Shown here piece after piece: positions 5,816 through 11,289 of a stretch of 64,000 nt of DNA. The stretch comes from a virus. Lineage: Duplodnaviria > Heunggongvirae > Uroviricota > Caudoviricetes. Where the stretch lies: the IMG/VR virus record IMGVR_UViG_2585427708_000005. One strand, written 5' to 3'. Within the stretch, counting starts at the first letter, position 1. Each line of letters begins with the position of its first letter. Under the pieces are notes generated by a model that ran no database searches, was not told the origin of the DNA, and saw nothing but the letters and a program-made list of their open reading frames with translations. A program made the position numbers and the translations under genes.

Positions 5816-5891
5816 TGGTGCCGATTAACGGGATCGAACCGCTGACCATTCGCTTACAAAGCGACTGCTCTACCAACTGAGCTAAATCGGC
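5816..5891 (-). tRNA. tRNA-Thr (anticodon UGU)
   Basis: 76 nt; acceptor GCCGATT/AATCGGC, D-arm GCTCAGTTGGTAGAGC, anticodon loop TTTGTAA, T-loop GGTTCGATCC, encoded CCA. Confidence 0.75.
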
Positions 5892-5895
5892 AATG

Positions 5896-5982
5896 TGGTG
5901 GGGAGTGATGGAGTCGAACCACCCGAGTCGCAATGACAGTAGATTTACAGTCTACCCCGCTACCCCTACGGACTAACTCCCC
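5896..5982 (-). tRNA. type II tRNA-like gene, tRNA-Tyr (GUA)-like, D-arm atypical
   Basis: 87 nt; perfect acceptor GGGGAGT/ACTCCCC, anticodon stem-loop GTAGA-CTGTAAA-TCTAC, long variable arm resembling E. coli tRNA-Tyr, T-arm GGTGG-TTCGACT-CCATC, encoded CCA. Confidence 0.5.
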
Positions 5983-5987
5983 TAAAG

Positions 5988-6062
5988 TGGCGATGGTGGG
6001 TGGATTCGAACTACCGACCAGTTGGTTAACAGCCAACTGCTCTACCGCTGAGCTACACCATC
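5988..6062 (-). tRNA. tRNA-Asn (anticodon GUU)
   Basis: 75 nt; acceptor GATGGTG/CACCATC, D-arm GCTCAGCGGTAGAGC, anticodon loop CTGTTAA, T-loop TTCGAAT, encoded CCA; one A-C mismatch in T-stem. Confidence 0.7.
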
Positions 6063-6727
6063 ACTTGCCGGGTACGTCTCCGGCGAGGGCTTCCACCTCC
6101 GTATGCTTTTCGGCGCACCGCGCCCTGGCTGCAATTCGGTAACAGGGGATGCATAACCCTGGCTTCCAGCGTGATTAGCGCCTTCAGCATGACGGGATAT
6201 ACCCGTAAATTCGTGGAACTGTACCCAAAGTGCTGTTAAGCACCGCTGTTACGCTGAAAAGAAAACGCAACAGGAAAGGACGCTGACCAACAGATGGCCC
6301 CTTCTCGTTCATCTGGTTAATCACACCAGCGCCCTTACCTGTTGTGCCTCCCCGTTCCCTAATACACAGACGGGGACACTCTGCGGTCGATTTTTTGACG
6401 GGGGACGACTCATACCCCATGGCATCTGGCTTCTTAGGCCGCTACCATCATCAGATCATCGTTTGCATTTACTTTAATGGTCAGTTTCTAAACCGCCGCA
6501 AAGTCGCTAACCATGACGAAAACCCTGAAAAAAACGCCCACCCGAAGATGGGCAAACTGGACGCTCGTAACGCACTTCGGCGTTGCCACTTAGGCGCATG
6601 GTCAACCTGGCAACTCGGTGGTTTGTCTGGGAGGACTAGGCCCAGCCATGCTTACCGCCGCGCCTGTCGCGGCTAACAGCTAAATCGCTCTATAAATCAC
6701 GATTCATTGAGGTGATATTACACTAAT

Positions 6728-6744
6728 AAATTTATTAGAGCAAT
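6728..6744. promoter_or_regulatory. C1 repressor operator-like site (AAATTTATTAGAGCAAT), upstream of tRNA-ban operon
   Basis: 17/17 match to reverse complement of P1 C1 operator consensus ATTGCTCTAATAAATTT. Confidence 0.6.
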
Positions 6745-9700
6745 ATACCCAAAACGTCATGAGCTACACCTCGAGTGTCCCCCTTACAAGACACAGAACG
6801 TCTGGCAAAAAGAGGTTCCACTCTGAAGCCACTGTCATGATAAAGCTCTCTGATGTTTGGCGCGCCACTGTTAGTAATGAGAACCTTTGCACCTCGACGA
6901 TGAGCATCCGTCAACAGAGACACCAGGCGTTTTTGCTCTTCAAACTTAAAGTCATGACCGGAATAGTTCGTGAATCCCTCTGTATTTGGAAGCGGTTCAT
7001 ACGGCGGATCGCAAAAGATGACATCTCCTTCTCCGGCAGCTTCAATCACCGCTGCAAAATCACCGCATACAAACTCAGACCGCCCTTCCGCACCGAGGAA
7101 GGCTTCCATCTCCTGTAATGGGAAATACGGAGTTTTATACTTCCCATAACCGACATTGAACTCACCGGCCTGGTTGTAACGCGTCAATCCGTTAAAACAA
7201 TGTCGGTTCAGGAACAAAAACGCCGCTGCGCGATGTAAATCATCATAGACTTGTTTGTTAAACGCATTCCGTACTGCCAGGTATCCTTCCTGTGTGTTGT
7301 AGTCCTGGAAGAAACGATGTGCCAGAGTGATAAGTGAATGCGCCTCGCGTTGCAGAGTCTTGTAAAAGTTAATCAGGTCAGCATTCACATCATTTAGCAG
7401 ATTTTCCTGGTATCCGGCATTCATGAAGACAGCTCCGCCACCAACGAAAGGTTCAATCAGGCGCTTCCCTTCTGGCAAATAGCGAAAGATTTGTTCCAGA
7501 ACACCAAATTTTCCACCAGCCCATTTGAATATGGACCGTTCGAATTCTGCCGCTGGTTTAACTTTTCGCTCTTTTGTTTCACTTCCTTCTTTCTGCCGAC
7601 ATACGGCCTTAGTAATCCGATCGCCAATCCAGCGCATTACTGGTATTGCCATACTATTGCCGATCGCTTTGTAACGCGGTCCGTCAGCTGCAAGCATCGC
7701 GGCCTCTTCTTCGCTTAAATCTGGATAGTGATTGCGAAGGTATGCCAGTTCATCTGAAGAAACTTTTTTACGCTTTTCCGTCGGGATCAACGTATGCCCC
7801 TCAGGAAAACCTTGCAGCCTTTCACATTCGACAGGGGTAAGACGGCGGACAGCTACTTCTGCGTTTCTTACTTCATAGCAAACAGCTGTTGGATTTTTAG
7901 CCATTAGAGATGGTGAAGTATTCTTAGTTGCAGCATGTTGTGTACCGCTCATACGCTCAGGAAAAGCCAATGTAACAAGATGCTCATGGCTTTCTTGCTC
8001 ACGTGCCCGCAATGTACCATGCCCTTCTGACCAAAAACCTGCTCCTGTGCTGCTAAAAACGGCAAGGTCAGTGGCATCTTTAAAATCTCTTGCCTTTACT
8101 GTCGATGCGGTTTCATCGTCAATATATTCCCCAAATGCTGCCATCCTGAAAGCGTTTACGGCTTTCGTCGATTTCATACCGGGTGGCATGTCAGCGTGTA
8201 GGCATGGATTTAGGCTTTCGCCACTGATTGCAGCGCCATTTGCAATAATGGCGGAAGCGATTTCCTTCTTTTTTCGGCTCGGCGCAATATTCCGGCGCAC
8301 GCCTTCGAACTCAAAAAGTACCGTTGCGGGATCGAGATCTGTTCGAGCACTTGCGACAACAAACACGCGTCGGCGTCGTTGTGCCACTCCGAAGTATTGG
8401 GCATCAAGGATTCTCCAGGCCACTTTTCGCTGCGGTCCATAAATACAACCACACTGCGGCCACTTTGGAACATGGCAACCGGTTTTGCCATCCCACCGCC
8501 AGAACGCGTTGCTTTTTCCTGATTCAGGTCGATCACCTGGTTCAAATGGCACATCTTCTCCAGCCAATCCGGCAAGGAAACATCCGAAGGCGTTATCTGC
8601 CGATGACAAGACTCCTGGGACATTTTCCCAGACGATAACGGCTGGTTTGAGAAATGACTCAGCCCGTTTGTCGTCAATTGCATTTGCAAGCTCCACATAC
8701 TTTAAAGTTAGCGCGCCACGCTCATCATCAAGCCCACCACGTAATCCCGCGATACTGAATGCCTGACAGTTATGGACCACCGCACCATTGAGGATATAGG
8801 AATGATCACCTTCGACTTCTATGTTGTATACAGTATCTAGGCCTACCGATTTAAACTCTTTGACTGTTCGTAAAAGCATTCCATGAGCCAATCTTGATTT
8901 ACGTGACAATTTCTGCGGGCAGATTGTTACCTGATAATAATTCCGTTGATTTACCACGCGATCCTCGATCACTTTTTTGGGCTCAACTTCAATAAAGCTG
9001 ACCGAAGAAACATAACCACAAGTCTGTGACAACCCCGCAACGCCCCAAGCAAGCGCAGAACTAACACTATTAATTCTAAATCCCGCTTTACCACTTGGTG
9101 TCCCATCAGTATCAAGATAGCCTTGTAAAAACACATGACGCAATGGATGCGACATCACCCATGCAGGGATACGCTTAGCATGGCTTAACTCGCCAAAATG
9201 TTCATTAAGCCAATTGGCATAACACGTATCATTCAAGGTTACTTTGATGCTCCCTCGGATTTCGCTTGCCACGGAAAATATGTTTTCTGGTATGCGGCAA
9301 TGAAACTTTCTCAATTTCTGGCAATTTATGCCAAAAACAACCGCCTTCTTAGATTTACCTCTCCATCTCCTAATATATCCATCGCCAACATAAGCGCCCG
9401 CAAGATACATAGCCTGTTCTTCAGACAAGAACCGAGAACAAATATCTGGAAATGCAATATTGAAATTAGTTAGAGCGCACCATTGATATCCCGGCATATC
9501 ACATGCTGCTCGCCATTCCGGTTCAGACAACAACTCTCTCTTAAAATATGTGCCATTTTTCCGGGTGTTTTGGGCTTTCCACCGAACAGCCAGGAAGGGA
9601 TGGTCATTGGTTGTTCTTATACCTAAAGGCTGCCCAACGGCATTAAGTAACCCCGTATTAGCTATTTTTGAACCAACTCTTTTTACTTGTTGTAACCGCC

Positions 9701-10022
9701 CGAGATGACTGACTACGTAATCACCAGGGCAAACATTTTCTATTGGTTTATAGCCATTTTTACAAAGAACCATATGCCCCGCGGTAAAACATGGTGTTCC
9801 CCCGACGAGCACGTCAGGGGATTCGATTTCCCCAGCCAAGACTTTTTTGGCAAGTTTTTTCATGTCGCCAAGGTTGGCAACATGGGGCCAGCGGAGCGCA
9901 AGAACGGCCGATGGAAAAGGCTCGATTTCAGCAAACCACGCCGGACGCATACCCAACGGTTCCCAGGCAATACTCGCGGCTTCAATTCCACTGCAAACAG
10001 ATCCATAGCACAGCTCTTTCAC
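6735..10022 (-). CDS. dmt: bifunctional DNA methyltransferase (N-terminal C5-cytosine MTase, C-terminal Dam-like N6-adenine MTase) interrupted by an intein
   Basis: GTG start overlapping rdgC stop; C5 motifs ENV (VIVWENVPG), [10 protein letters not shown], split PC-Q motif; Dam motifs [10 protein letters not shown] and DPPY; 1095 aa = ~754 aa extein + 341 aa insert. Confidence 0.85.
8769..9791 (-). other. intein (341 aa) with LAGLIDADG homing-endonuclease domain inside dmt
   Basis: insert begins CFTAGHMVL (Cys1), contains TxxH block (TTNDHPF), two LAGLIDADG motifs ([13 protein letters not shown]; [13 protein letters not shown]), ends ...[20 protein letters not shown] followed by Cys+1; excision restores [12 protein letters not shown]. 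Confidence 0.75.
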
Positions 10023-10924
10023 TGCTTAGCCTCTCCGCCAAGGGCATTTACCAGAGCATCAACCAGGCACGAAATTTCACTGGTCAACAGGAAGAAATCT
10101 GCGTCCAGTCGCTGCGCAACATCTTCACTATCAATATCAGAGTTCTGCTCAAGCAATTCATCCGCAAATTTGACGCTGGTAAGGCTGAAGTTATGGTCCA
10201 GTGTAAATTTAATGCGGTTCTGCCAGTCGAGTGCCAACTTAGTGACGAGCTTGCCAGCTTCCAGGTGTGTGGAAATTTCATCGCTTCCCAAATCCTGCTT
10301 TTTCACTCGGGCAATACCGCCATCCTCAAGCACTGCCTTAAGTTCTGCCGCATCCCCCATTTGAAATCCCTGTGGAGCACTACCATCACGTACCCAGTCG
10401 GTCAGCGTTAATTCAATGGGATTTTCAACACTCAGGGGAACAGCAGGAAGAGAACCCAGAGACTTACGCATAAGCGCGAGCATATCCTCTGCCTGCCGCG
10501 CGCTGGCATTGATATAGATACGTTTAGTTGAACCGTCGTAGATCGCCTGGATAACAGAAAACTTTGAAAAAGCCCGTGGCAGAAGAGAATGCAGAACTTC
10601 GTCTTTCAGGGAGTCCTTCTCTGTTTTCTTCAGTTTACGCGCTTGTTCTTGCTCAAGTTTTTCAATTTTTTCTTGAATAGCTCGCTGGATAACCGGCGGG
10701 GGAAGAATTTTTGTTTCGCGCTTTGCTTCAACAAGGATAAAACCATTTCCATGCATAGCGATAACTTCAGAATTATCACCAAATGGCGATACAAAACCGA
10801 ACTTGGCCATATCCTGACTACCGCATGGCGTGAAAAGGAGCATTTTCTTTTTATCTTCTAAGTCGGTCAGATCCGCCTCACGAGAAAGTTTATAAATAGT
10901 AATGTTTTTCCAGTGCTTAAACAT
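10019..10924 (-). CDS. rdgC: RdgC-like recombination-associated protein
   Basis: ~301 aa from internal Met ([13 protein letters not shown]...), length and N-terminus typical of RdgC; the ORF-track 5' extension from TTG is probably not translated; coordinates near 10920-10981 uncertain by 1 nt. Confidence 0.75.
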
Positions 10925-11273
10925 GTTGTAACCCTTGAATATCAACCACAGAAAGCTCGTCTTTGTAGAAAAAGGCCAGGTTGTGGCACCCCCTCGTTTG
11001 AGCGTATGAGCTGGGACCAATTTCGTTCTTCCAGACAAATGGCTTCAAATCCGTACGGCGAAGCATAAAAACGCGATTTATTCCGCTCTGATTCCCAATG
11101 AGGCAAAAGCCTTCTTTCACCTTGATAGCCTGCAAGTTGTCGAGTTCACCGCTGGTTACACGGCTATCGAACTCTTTGCGGCTTATTAGCTCCATCTGCA
11201 TCTGACGACTCCAAACAAATGCCCATTGAAGGGCGATGGCTGAATGGTACCGAAAATACGACATAAAAAACAA
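10917..11273 (-). CDS. hypothetical protein upstream of rdgC (118 aa)
   Basis: ORF overlapping rdgC start by a few nt; start region coincides with C1 operator-like site; no motif. Confidence 0.35.
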
Positions 11274-11289
11274 TATTTATTAGAGCAAT
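11273..11289. promoter_or_regulatory. C1 operator-like site in divergent promoter region
   Basis: ATATTTATTAGAGCAAT, 16/17 to consensus. Confidence 0.55.

What the first reader, a model, noticed from the sequence alone, without database searches (positions are those of the whole stretch)
8769..9791. LAGLIDADG intein inserted exactly at the catalytic cysteine of the C5 half of a Dmt-type bifunctional methyltransferase
The 1095-aa minus-strand ORF is a C5-cytosine MTase (ENV, QRRRR motifs) fused to a Dam-like N6-adenine MTase (FxGGG, DPPY). The C5 motif IV is split: ...LVGGTP | CFTAGHMVL...(341 aa)...NGAVVHN | [12 protein letters not shown]. Deleting the 341 residues restores a canonical GxPCQxFSxAG motif. 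The insert begins with Cys, ends with His-Asn followed by Cys, and carries a TxxH block and two LAGLIDADG motifs, i.e. a class 1 intein with a homing endonuclease. The remaining ~754 aa matches the size I remember for intein-free P1 Dmt. An intein gating the catalytic residue of a phage methyltransferase means methylation activity depends on protein splicing.
Basis: partly seen in the sequence, partly recalled or inferred. Interest (0 to 1): 0.8.

Follow-up and report, generated by a model that had tools for sequence, protein, structure and literature searches.

The report
Intein in phage P1-type methyltransferase
A self-splicing protein element carrying its own homing nuclease sits exactly at the catalytic cysteine of the cytosine-methylase half of the Dmt enzyme of a P1-like E. 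coli phage; it is a textbook intein, common in natural P1-like phages, labelled as an intein in no public record I saw, and I found no paper describing it.

Summary
The minus-strand ORF 6735..10022 (1095 aa) is the dmt gene of a P1-like phage and is 100% identical to Escherichia phage vB_EcoM-Ro157c2YLVW. Window 8769..9791 is a precise in-frame 341-aa insertion relative to the 754-aa P1 Dmt, between Pro77 and the motif IV cysteine.

The insert has every sequence hallmark of a class 1 intein: Cys1, TxxH, His-Asn, +1 Cys and two LAGLIDADG motifs with their aspartates. Its AlphaFold model (pLDDT 91) matches PI-SceI and other endonuclease-bearing inteins (Foldseek E 3e-17). In-silico splicing restores a contiguous C5-methylase motif IV that aligns with M.HhaI GFPCQAFS.

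About 31% of dmt alleles in complete E. coli genomes carry it (152 of 492 genomes), as do 129 plasmids and one laboratory P1vir stock. It is 3-9 times less diverse at synonymous sites than its flanks and sits on polyphyletic dmt backgrounds. Its splicing domain is under purifying selection; its endonuclease domain looks nearly neutral.

Inteins occupy the same site in C5 methylases of at least eight other bacterial groups. No record seen labels it an intein, and no paper I could search describes it.

Verdict: real, a new member of a known kind, moderately interesting. Splicing and homing are inferred, not shown.

The parts
6735..10022 (-). dmt precursor ORF: 1095 aa plus stop, GTG start, 121.7 kDa
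   Evidence: It is 100% identical to dmt of phage vB_EcoM-Ro157c2YLVW. The exact protein is seen on 723 contigs and is named only 'Dam family ... methyltransferase'.
9792..10022 (-). N-extein, ORF aa 1-77: C5-MTase motif I (GSVCSGIEA) up to ...LVGGTP of motif IV
8769..9791 (-). Intein, ORF aa 78-418 (341 aa, 38.3 kDa, pI 9.4)
9753..9791 (-). Intein block A with the Cys1 nucleophile ([13 protein letters not shown])
   Evidence: (C1, F2, G5 nearly invariant in relatives)
9594..9617 (-). Intein block B, TxxH (T61-N-D-H64)
   Evidence: (T61, H64, P65 nearly invariant)
8907..9461 (-). Nested LAGLIDADG homing-endonuclease domain, approximately intein aa 111-295
   Evidence: Pfam LAGLIDADG_3; helix-strand pattern of the AF2 model; Foldseek matches to I-SceI, I-DmoI and PI-SceI; pN/pS 0.76
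9378..9407 (-). LAGLIDADG motif 1 ([10 protein letters not shown], catalytic Asp137)
   Evidence: invariant in 30 P1-like copies
9102..9131 (-). LAGLIDADG motif 2 ([10 protein letters not shown], Asp229)
   Evidence: invariant in 30 P1-like copies
8769..8837 (-). Intein blocks F and G ([13 protein letters not shown] ... NGAVVHN) with the terminal His340-Asn341
   Evidence: TIGR01443 above its cut-off; aligns with the Spl DnaX mini-intein C-terminus; no nucleotide change among 22 haplotypes in aa 296-341
8766..8768 (-). The +1 Cys codon (ORF aa 419): the splice-junction nucleophile and the motif IV (PCQ) catalytic cysteine of the C5 MTase
   Evidence: The spliced sequence aligns across the junction with M.HhaI GFPCQAFS and M.HaeIII GGPPCQSWS. 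That this Cys is the methylase nucleophile is established knowledge for M.HhaI.
6735..8768 (-). C-extein, ORF aa 419-1095: rest of the C5 MTase (motifs IV-X) and the Dam domain
7848..8276 (-). Variable target-recognition region of the C5 MTase, between motifs VIII and IX. The window carries cassette A, the P1-reference type.
   Evidence: three cassettes occur among P1-like alleles, and the intein is found on all three
6825..7523 (-). Dam-type (D12 class) N6-adenine MTase domain with FVGGG and DPPY
   Evidence: PF02086 2e-56; TIGR00571 7e-74, above its cut-off
11244..11289 (-). C1 operator Odmt and promoter Pdmt of the uhr-hrdC-dmt operon
   Evidence: 45 of 46 bases identical to the annotated P1 operator/promoter

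Best explanation
Window 8769..9791 (-) encodes a canonical class 1 intein with a nested double-motif LAGLIDADG homing endonuclease. It is inserted in the dmt gene of a P1-like phage-plasmid, between Pro77 and the motif IV catalytic cysteine of the C5-cytosine methyltransferase domain.

Proposed mechanism (inferred):
- The operon is C1-repressed, so the 121.7-kDa precursor is made on lytic induction.
- Cys1 performs the N-S acyl shift. The +1 Cys, which is also the methylase nucleophile, attacks the thioester. Asn341 cyclises with help from His340. The exteins are joined into the 83.4-kDa, 754-aa Dmt with an intact GGTPCQAFS motif, and a 38.3-kDa free intein is released.
- The C5 half cannot be active before splicing, because motifs I-IV(N) and IV(C)-X are 341 residues apart. 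The Dam half lies entirely in the C-extein and probably does not need splicing.
- At the DNA level the element entered P1-like dmt once. It has spread over diverged dmt alleles by recombination, most likely started by its endonuclease cutting the intein-less site ...GGTACGCCT|TGTCAGGCATTC....

Shown here: anatomy, fold, precise presence/absence polymorphism, population pattern. Inferred: splicing, cleavage, homing.
For: Anatomy and fold:
- Precise 341-aa in-frame insertion relative to P1 Dmt.
- All class 1 residues are present and conserved in relatives: C1, T61/H64, H340-N341, +1 C.
- Pfam/NCBIfam Hint, Intein_splicing, intein_Cterm and LAGLIDADG_3 hits.
- AF2 model pLDDT 91.4, pTM 0.88. Best PDB matches are PI-SceI, TliVMA, PhoVMA, PI-PfuI and PI-PkoII, E 3e-17 to 2e-9.
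- The spliced sequence gives a contiguous PF00145 match (126 bits, against 102 bits in three pieces) and aligns with M.HhaI/M.HaeIII across the junction.
- No intron-like RNA family in the region.

Distribution:
- Polymorphic: 152 intein-bearing against 339 uninterrupted among 492 E. coli genomes with dmt. Also 129 plasmids.

Population pattern:
- Synonymous diversity among 22 intein-bearing haplotypes is 0.013 in the intein, 0.121 in the N-extein and 0.039 in the C-extein.
- Intein-bearing alleles are polyphyletic in the extein tree.
- They occur on all three TRD cassettes.
- The flanking Pro codon is CCA in 30/30 intein-bearing alleles and CCT in 68/68 intein-less alleles.
- pN/pS is 0.08 in the N-terminal splicing region, and there are no changes in the C-terminal one.
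- Insert GC is 0.41-0.44, against 0.49-0.53 in the dmt sequence on either side.

Same site elsewhere and expression context:
- The same insertion point (PF00145 profile position 71) is occupied by related inteins in C5 MTases of many other bacteria.
- Pdmt/Odmt is conserved upstream.
Against: - No experiment: neither splicing nor DNA cleavage is shown.
- The endonuclease domain has pN/pS 0.76, based on few substitutions. It may therefore be decaying.
- The open reading frame through the intein would be kept by selection for the downstream Dam domain alone. The absence of stops in 30 copies is therefore not evidence for splicing.
- Low intein diversity and polyphyly could arise from ordinary homologous recombination between P1-like elements, without endonuclease-driven homing.
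- C5 methylation by Dmt is only 'perhaps' in the P1 annotation. The reference P1 allele carries a singleton G74W next to the PC motif.
- Hint_2 and Intein_splicing scores fall just below Pfam's curated cut-offs.
Confidence: 0.88

Rival explanations
1. The intein still splices, but its endonuclease is inactive or decaying (late stage of the homing cycle). Its present distribution over dmt alleles reflects ordinary homologous recombination and vertical descent in P1-like phage-plasmids, not current homing.
For: - pN/pS is 0.76 in the endonuclease domain, against 0.08 in the splicing domain.
- P1-like dmt is visibly mosaic, with three TRD cassettes and divergent N-exteins, so recombination alone can shuffle flanks.
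- The intein sits at an intermediate frequency of about 31% rather than near fixation.
Against: - Both LAGLIDADG aspartates and the motifs are invariant in 30 copies.
- Essentially all copies are full length, with no mini-intein derivatives: 126 of 129 plasmids and 153 of 153 E. coli records cover at least 80%.
- The pN/pS estimate rests on about a dozen substitutions.
- The perfect CCA/CCT association at the junction is what co-conversion during homing predicts.
Confidence: 0.35
2. The insert is a dead, non-splicing remnant that has knocked out the C5 half. Only the Dam domain, which P1 needs for pac cleavage in dam-deficient hosts, is used, as part of a 122-kDa fusion protein.
For: - C5 activity of Dmt is not established (annotation note).
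- The Dam function is the one described as essential (PMC12707154).
- Selection for the downstream Dam domain would keep the frame open.
- One intein-bearing allele (L013) has a nonsense codon in the N-extein.
Against: - Strong purifying selection acts specifically on the splicing regions: pN/pS 0.08, and zero changes in aa 296-341. A mere spacer would not show this.
- All catalytic splicing residues are intact.
- The extein C5 motifs remain intact and under purifying selection in intein-bearing alleles: pN/pS 0.14-0.20.
- TRD cassette diversity suggests the C5 specificity matters.
Confidence: 0.05
3. The intein has been co-opted as a conditional switch (for example redox-sensitive through Cys1/Cys+1 and nearby cysteines). 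It would delay or gate C5 methylation relative to Dam methylation during lytic growth.
For: - The two activities are physically separable: Dam lies wholly in the C-extein and C5 is split.
- Both junction nucleophiles are Cys, and Cys10 and Cys21 lie nearby.
- Conditional splicing of Cys-dependent inteins is documented for mycobacterial DnaB inteins (titles and abstracts of PMC6195587 and PMC7360933, listed).
- The intein persists at intermediate frequency.
Against: - No direct evidence.
- Most dmt alleles do without it, so it is dispensable.
- The pattern fits a selfish element as well or better.
Confidence: 0.08

Closest known systems
PI-SceI (S. cerevisiae VMA1 intein) and archaeal VMA/Pol inteins (TliVMA, PhoVMA, PI-PfuI, PI-PkoII)
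   Same: Same two-part architecture: a HINT splicing domain interrupted by a double-motif LAGLIDADG endonuclease. Cys1, TxxH, His-Asn and +1 Cys are shared. These are the best structural matches (Foldseek E 3e-17 to 2e-9, TM about 0.55-0.62).
   Different: Only 10-17% sequence identity. The host proteins (V-ATPase, DNA polymerase) and host organisms differ. At 341 aa, the intein here is more compact than PI-SceI (crystallised chains of 394-448 residues).
Inteins in actinophage/mycobacteriophage DNA methylases (DNMT-1/2 of Kelley et al. 2016, PMC5050341; Dorothy_75 family of Gosselin et al. 2023, PMC9957025)
   Same: LAGLIDADG-bearing inteins inside phage orphan DNA methyltransferases. They are patchily distributed, and the intein history is incongruent with the host gene.
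   Different: Kelley et al. class DNMT-1/2 as N6_N4_Mtase-type enzymes. They occur in phages of Actinobacteria and are not reported to sit at a catalytic cysteine. The case here is a PF00145 C5-cytosine MTase of an enterobacterial phage-plasmid, interrupted at the PC motif.
Unannotated same-site inteins in C5 MTases of other bacteria
   Same: Inserted at the identical point...G-x-P|C ... HN|C(Q/T)..S.AG, which is PF00145 profile position 71. They begin CF.(A/P)G and end VHN, and most carry LAGLIDADG domains. Identity to the P1-type intein is 26-52%. Examples: Mannheimia haemolytica P0010, Metarhizobium L034, Chloroflexota, Flavobacteriales, Clostridia, Neisseria, Campylobacterota, Mesorhizobium, Arthrobacter.
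   Different: Different host MTase subfamilies and taxa. Some lack the penultimate His (P0009, P0018) or the endonuclease (mini-intein P0019). None is fused to a Dam domain in the sequences examined.
Reference P1 Dmt (AAQ14041, AF234172)
   Same: Same gene, operon and regulation. The exteins are 96-97% identical in DNA, and the spliced product has the same 754-aa length.
   Different: No intein. The junction Pro codon is CCT rather than CCA. It carries a singleton G74W.

Membership tests
Class 1 intein (HINT-fold protein-splicing element) | Cys/Ser/Thr as first residue | tested here: met
   Cys at ORF aa 78. Nearly invariant in relatives.
Class 1 intein (HINT-fold protein-splicing element) | Block B TxxH | tested here: met
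   T61-N-D-H64. T61 and H64 are conserved in at least 90% of aligned relatives.
Class 1 intein (HINT-fold protein-splicing element) | C-terminal (His)-Asn followed by a Cys/Ser/Thr +1 residue | tested here: met
   ...VVH340-N341 | C. N341 is invariant. TIGR01443 scores 25.9-28.8 bits against a cut-off of 15.6.
Class 1 intein (HINT-fold protein-splicing element) | HINT fold | tested here: met
   AF2 pLDDT 91.4. Foldseek top hits are all inteins. Pfam Hint_2 scores 28.1 bits against a cut-off of 28.4, marginally below.
Class 1 intein (HINT-fold protein-splicing element) | Precise in-frame insertion at a conserved site of a host protein, absent from close orthologues | tested here: met
Class 1 intein (HINT-fold protein-splicing element) | Actual excision and extein ligation | not testable with these tools
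   Needs protein expression. Indirect support only: pN/pS 0.08 in the splicing region.
LAGLIDADG homing endonuclease (double-motif, intein-nested) | Two LAGLIDADG motifs, each with the catalytic acidic residue | tested here: met
   YLAGAYVGD137G and FLQGYLDTD229G. Pfam LAGLIDADG_3 scores 34.2 bits against a cut-off of 22.5. Invariant in 30 copies.
LAGLIDADG homing endonuclease (double-motif, intein-nested) | LAGLIDADG alpha-beta-beta-alpha-beta-beta-alpha fold | tested here: met
   Foldseek matches to I-SceI, I-DmoI and I-OnuI over the central domain, E 3e-5 to 4e-3. Secondary structure.
LAGLIDADG homing endonuclease (double-motif, intein-nested) | Site-specific cleavage of the intein-less allele, and homing | tested here: inconclusive
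   Cleavage is not testable here. The population pattern (low intein diversity, polyphyly, the CCA/CCT junction marker) is compatible with homing, but also with general recombination. Endonuclease-domain pN/pS is 0.76.
C5-cytosine DNA methyltransferase (PF00145) | Motifs I, IV (PCQ), VI (ENV), VIII (QxRxR), IX and X in order | tested here: met
   After in-silico splicing: [48 protein letters not shown]. PF00145 scores 126 bits. Aligns with M.HhaI and M.HaeIII.
C5-cytosine DNA methyltransferase (PF00145) | m5C-forming activity and its target sequence | not testable with these tools
   The P1 annotation says only 'perhaps at C5 cytosine'.
Dam family (D12 class) N6-adenine methyltransferase | Family profile above the curated cut-off, with FxGxG and DPPY motifs | tested here: met
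   TIGR00571 scores 248.8 bits against a cut-off of 114.85. PF02086 scores 191.9 bits. Motifs.
Bacterial intein-like (BIL) domain (considered) | HINT domain in a variable, non-conserved position of the host protein, lacking the canonical +1 nucleophile/His-Asn arrangement and lacking an endonuclease | tested here: not met
   The insert is in the most conserved motif of the enzyme, has His-Asn|Cys and carries an endonuclease. The PDB BIL domain 2lwy is only a weak hit (E 0.18).
Group I/II intron carrying a homing-endonuclease ORF (considered) | Structured RNA with the ORF not necessarily in frame with the exons | tested here: not met
   The reading frame is continuous through both junctions. 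No intron family was found in Rfam at E<=1 over 6000-11000. HINT domains flank the endonuclease.

The most novel reading that the evidence does not exclude
The most novel reading has two parts.

1. The PC-motif cysteine of C5 DNA methyltransferases is a widespread intein insertion point across bacterial phyla that appears not to have been described. The P1-like copy would be its experimentally most tractable member.

2. In P1-like phages the intein is more than a parasite. Because the Dam half can work in the precursor while the C5 half needs splicing, the element would act as a post-translational timer or conditional (for example redox-sensitive) switch. It would separate GATC methylation, needed for pac cleavage, from anti-restriction cytosine methylation.
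Probability: 0.1. Interest if true: 0.7.

Novelty: new member of a known kind. Interest (0 to 1): 0.42.

Why it matters
Phage P1 is a workhorse of E. coli genetics, and its reference genome lacks this element. Yet about a third of natural dmt alleles in complete E. coli genomes carry a complete, apparently functional intein, as does at least one laboratory P1vir stock (OP279344). Databases label the protein simply as a Dam-family methyltransferase.

What this offers:
- A native intein plus homing endonuclease in the most tractable bacterial host. Intein-bearing and intein-less partners occur naturally, so homing, co-conversion and splicing kinetics can be measured directly with P1 crosses.
- A correction for annotators: the 1095-aa and 1013-aa 'Dam' proteins are precursors.
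- A case where the catalytic nucleophile of an enzyme is also the +1 nucleophile of its intein.
- A pointer to the PC motif of C5 methyltransferases as a recurrent intein site in many bacterial groups. I found no paper describing this.

Mechanistically it is a standard intein, so the conceptual surprise is limited.

Tried and rejected
Literature:
- Nine usable full-text searches found no paper on this intein or on any intein in a C5 MTase. They combined intein with dmt, P1, P1-like, cytosine methyltransferase, cytosine-5 and phage-plasmid.
- Hits that looked promising were unrelated: the BASEL collection, Thermus phages, the plasmid-mobility review, a B. thuringiensis phage and a glacier virome.
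- Novikova et al. 2016 (PMC4760082) does not mention methylases in its main text.
- Two searches were badly specified and wasted.
- The RCS47 paper and the P1 genome paper are not held. I therefore could not check whether they remark on the longer dmt.

Sequence search against PDB: only weak hits. The fold search was needed.

Rejected readings:
- An intron: continuous frame and no Rfam hit.
- A BIL domain.
- A fixed extra domain: most alleles lack it.

Argument dropped: 'no stop codons in 30 inteins' is not evidence for splicing, because the downstream Dam domain enforces an open frame anyway.

Caveat: the allele sample used for population statistics came from two separate retrievals, so its +/- proportions are not frequencies. 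Frequencies are taken only.
Full report
**1. The observation**

The window has a minus-strand ORF at 6735..10022 of 1095 aa. It is preceded by ...DVLVGGTP and followed by [12 protein letters not shown]. Deleting it leaves 754 aa.

The other cited motifs are all present: ENVPG, QRRRR, FVGGGAV and DPPY, the TxxH block at intein T61-H64, and two LAGLIDADG motifs at intein residues 129-138 and 221-230. GC content is 0.41-0.44 inside the segment, against 0.49-0.53 in the dmt sequence on either side.

**2. What the host gene is**

The ORF is 100% identical in DNA to dmt of Escherichia phage vB_EcoM-Ro157c2YLVW (genus Punavirus). It is 99.1% identical to dmt of phage RCS47. Outside the insert it is 96-98% identical to dmt/dam of P1, P7, SJ46 and others.

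In all of these the gene follows uhr and hrdC/rdgC and precedes a tRNA cluster. The C1 operator/promoter Odmt-Pdmt of P1 is conserved at window 11244..11289 (45 of 46 bases). The Oban operator overlaps the dmt stop codon. The gene is therefore in the usual C1-repressed operon.

Pfam and NCBIfam find a C5-cytosine methylase domain (PF00145) and a Dam domain (PF02086; TIGR00571 far above its cut-off). The P1 record describes Dmt as bifunctional, methylating GATC adenines 'and perhaps' C5 of cytosine.

**3. The insert is a precise presence/absence polymorphism**

Aligned with reference P1 Dmt (754 aa), the window protein differs in length by a single clean 341-residue gap between ...GTP and CQAFS....

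- In complete E. coli genomes, 492 of 5426 have the 5' part of dmt.
- In 339 of them it is uninterrupted.
- 152 carry the 1023-nt insert, all at full length, and 148 of the 153 copies are on plasmids. About 31% of dmt alleles are therefore interrupted.
- PLSDB holds 129 plasmids with the insert, from E. coli, Salmonella and Shigella.
- A laboratory P1vir stock sequenced for an Argonaute study (OP279344) also has it.

No record I saw labels it an intein. The exact 1095-aa protein, seen on 723 contigs, is called 'Dam family site-specific DNA-(adenine-N6)-methyltransferase'. Only fragments are auto-named 'LAGLIDADG family homing endonuclease' or 'Hint domain-containing protein'.

**4. The insert is an intein with a homing endonuclease**

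Sequence:
- The residues are Cys1, T61xxH64, H340-N341 and +1 Cys.
- Pfam gives LAGLIDADG_3 (34 bits, above its cut-off), Hint_2 (28.1 bits against a cut-off of 28.4) and Intein_splicing.
- NCBIfam gives intein_Cterm above its cut-off, plus weak matches to the intein parts of intein-containing RNR, GyrA, RFC, RtcB and DnaB models.
- Against PDB sequences the C-terminal 42 residues align with the Spl DnaX mini-intein, and the centre aligns with PI-PkoII.

Structure:
- An AlphaFold2 model built on ten relatives has mean pLDDT 91.4 and pTM 0.88.
- Its best Foldseek matches in the PDB are all endonuclease-bearing inteins: PI-SceI (E 2.7e-17), TliVMA, PhoVMA, PI-PfuI and PI-PkoII.
- Free-standing LAGLIDADG enzymes (I-SceI, I-DmoI, I-OnuI) follow, matching the central domain.

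Exclusions: no structured-RNA (intron) family matches the region, and the reading frame is continuous.

**5. The insertion point is the catalytic cysteine**

The in-silico spliced C5 domain gives a contiguous PF00145 match of 126 bits over profile positions 5-119. The precursor gives 102 bits in three pieces. The spliced sequence aligns across the junction with M.HhaI (...LCAGFPCQAFSISGKQKGFEDSRGTL...) and M.HaeIII (...IIGGPPCQSWSEGG...).

It is established knowledge that the Cys of this PCQ motif is the nucleophile that attacks C6 of cytosine. So the +1 residue needed for transesterification in splicing is the same residue the methylase needs for catalysis.

**6. Related inteins at the same site elsewhere**

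A protein search with the intein returned, besides the P1-like copies, several classes of relative:
- Inteins of 47-52% identity in other C5 methylases. Examples are Mannheimia haemolytica, a Rodentibacter fragment, and metagenomic proteins whose exteins resemble Dmt.
- More distant inteins at 29-32% identity.
- A mini-intein.

All of these are inserted at ...P|C...N|C.

A scan of one genome per species found further copies flanked by G-x-P|C and HN|C(Q/T)..S.AG. The hosts include Metarhizobium, Mesorhizobium, Chloroflexota, Flavobacteriales, Clostridia, Actinomycetota, Neisseria and Campylobacterota. More distant hits were the familiar SufB and ribonucleotide-reductase inteins.

For eight of nine loci from other phyla that I tested, Pfam found PF00145. 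In five the match is split at profile position 71 by the intein. A sixth resumes at position 79, and in the other two the best stretch ends at 71 or lies further downstream. The set includes variants with SPD|C or SPE|C. The ninth locus (L054) had no PF00145 hit. The P1-type intein therefore belongs to a broad family of inteins that share this insertion point.

**7. Population evidence in P1-like elements**

I compared 30 intein-bearing and 68 intein-less alleles from GenBank and IMG/VR loci.

- (a) The Pro codon next to the insertion is CCA in all 30 intein-bearing alleles and CCT in all 68 intein-less alleles. This fits a single origin with tight co-transfer of the immediate flank.
- (b) Among 22 distinct intein-bearing haplotypes, synonymous diversity is 0.013 in the intein, 0.121 in the 231-nt N-extein and 0.039 in the first 495 nt of the C-extein. 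The intein is much younger than the alleles it sits in.
- (c) In a neighbour-joining tree of the exteins, intein-bearing alleles fall in several places among intein-less ones. Some have C-exteins identical to intein-less alleles.
- (d) The region between methylase motifs VIII and IX, where C5 methylases carry their target-recognition domain, comes in three unrelated cassettes giving spliced lengths of 754, 672 and 862 aa. The intein occurs on all three.
- (e) pN/pS is 0.08 in intein residues 1-110 and 0.76 in the endonuclease region. Residues 296-341 have no changes at all. The LAGLIDADG motifs are invariant.

Together these results indicate one recent entry followed by spread across diverged dmt alleles, with selection keeping the splicing function.

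They do not prove that the endonuclease drives the spread. Ordinary recombination among P1-like elements could give the same picture, and the endonuclease domain looks close to neutral, although that estimate rests on few substitutions. The absence of stop codons in the intein is uninformative, because the downstream Dam domain needs the frame open in any case.

**8. Mechanism proposed**

On lytic induction the 121.7-kDa precursor is made (mass). Standard class 1 splicing then yields the 83.4-kDa, 754-aa Dmt and a basic 38.3-kDa intein. The steps are an N-S shift at Cys1, transesterification to the +1 Cys, Asn341 cyclisation and an S-N shift.

The C5 half is necessarily inactive until ligation. 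The Dam half, entirely in the C-extein, probably is not.

The free intein is expected to recognise the uninterrupted dmt site and promote its own copying into it during mixed infections or when two P1-like elements meet. These steps are inferred from the anatomy and from established intein chemistry. None was tested.

**9. Comparison with what is known, and novelty**

Inteins with LAGLIDADG endonucleases are long known, and insertion at catalytic residues is typical of them. Inteins in phage DNA methylases have been described. Kelley et al. class the mycobacteriophage ones as N6/N4-type enzymes, and a related intein-bearing methylase family occurs in other actinophages (PMC5050341; PMC9957025).

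I found no paper describing an intein in P1-family dmt or in any C5 methylase. The large intein survey PMC4760082 does not mention methylases in its main text. My literature access was partial, however: the P1 genome and RCS47 papers are not held.

I rate it a new member of a known kind. It is a solid, verifiable annotation gap in a classic model phage family and a convenient natural system. It is not a new mechanism.

**10. Verdict**

- Confidence that this is a genuine splicing-competent intein: about 0.88.
- That its endonuclease is currently active is roughly even odds.
- Interest: 0.42.

Noticed in passing
window 7848..8276 (-); compare L003 (OP279344), L150, L153, L159: The region of dmt between C5-MTase motifs VIII (QRRRR) and IX ([15 protein letters not shown]) is the expected target-recognition domain. 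Among P1-like elements it exists as three unrelated cassettes, giving spliced protein lengths of 754, 672 and 862 aa. This suggests that P1-like phages swap C5 methylation specificity. The window has the P1-reference cassette.
   Followed up: partly
L004 (AF234172, reference P1) dmt codon 74; corresponds to window 9801..9803 (-): Reference P1 Dmt has Trp instead of Gly at residue 74 (LVWGTPC against LVGGTPC), four residues before the catalytic Cys. It is unique among the 98 alleles compared. It may be a laboratory-strain mutation that impairs the C5 activity of the reference phage.
   Followed up: partly
window 9792..9794 (-), the Pro77 codon at the junction: There is a fixed synonymous difference at the base next to the insertion site: CCA in 30 of 30 intein-bearing alleles and CCT in 68 of 68 intein-less alleles.
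   Followed up: yes
window 5816..6062 (-): The tRNA cluster downstream of dmt holds Asn(gtt), an 87-nt Tyr(gta) and Thr(tgt). Reference P1, RCS47 and OP279344 have only Asn and Thr here. The Tyr tRNA is therefore an extra gene in this phage lineage.
   Followed up: no
L013 (IMGVR_UViG_2721755710_000007), dmt codon 62: One intein-bearing allele has a nonsense codon in the N-extein (…LAKKV*AGEIE…). Its dmt is probably a pseudogene, although the intein itself is intact.
   Followed up: no
P0010 (Mannheimia haemolytica, seen on 578 contigs): This related same-site intein (47% identity) is followed by a truncated, unrecognisable C-extein (…VVHN|CQSDKGGTVKASGGGFEWRE, then stop). In this species the host methylase looks decayed while the intein ORF is conserved.
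   Followed up: no
L046, L048, L050, L057 (Chloroflexota, Accumulibacter, Polyangiaceae, Arthrobacter): In these loci, inteins interrupt large proteins at a variant motif, SPD|C or SPE|C … HN|C(T/K)(H/N)(H/F)S. L046 (1127 aa) and L057 (947 aa) were tested and score as PF00145. This looks like the same catalytic-Cys site in a divergent C5-MTase subfamily.
   Followed up: partly
window 6434..6539 (-): There is a weak sub-threshold Rfam match (tmRNA_permuted, 24 bits against a gathering score of 47) in the spacer between dmt and the tRNAs. The annotated dicF-like region of P1 lies nearby, roughly 115-215 nt downstream of the dmt stop, about window 6520-6620. The match is probably chance.
   Followed up: no
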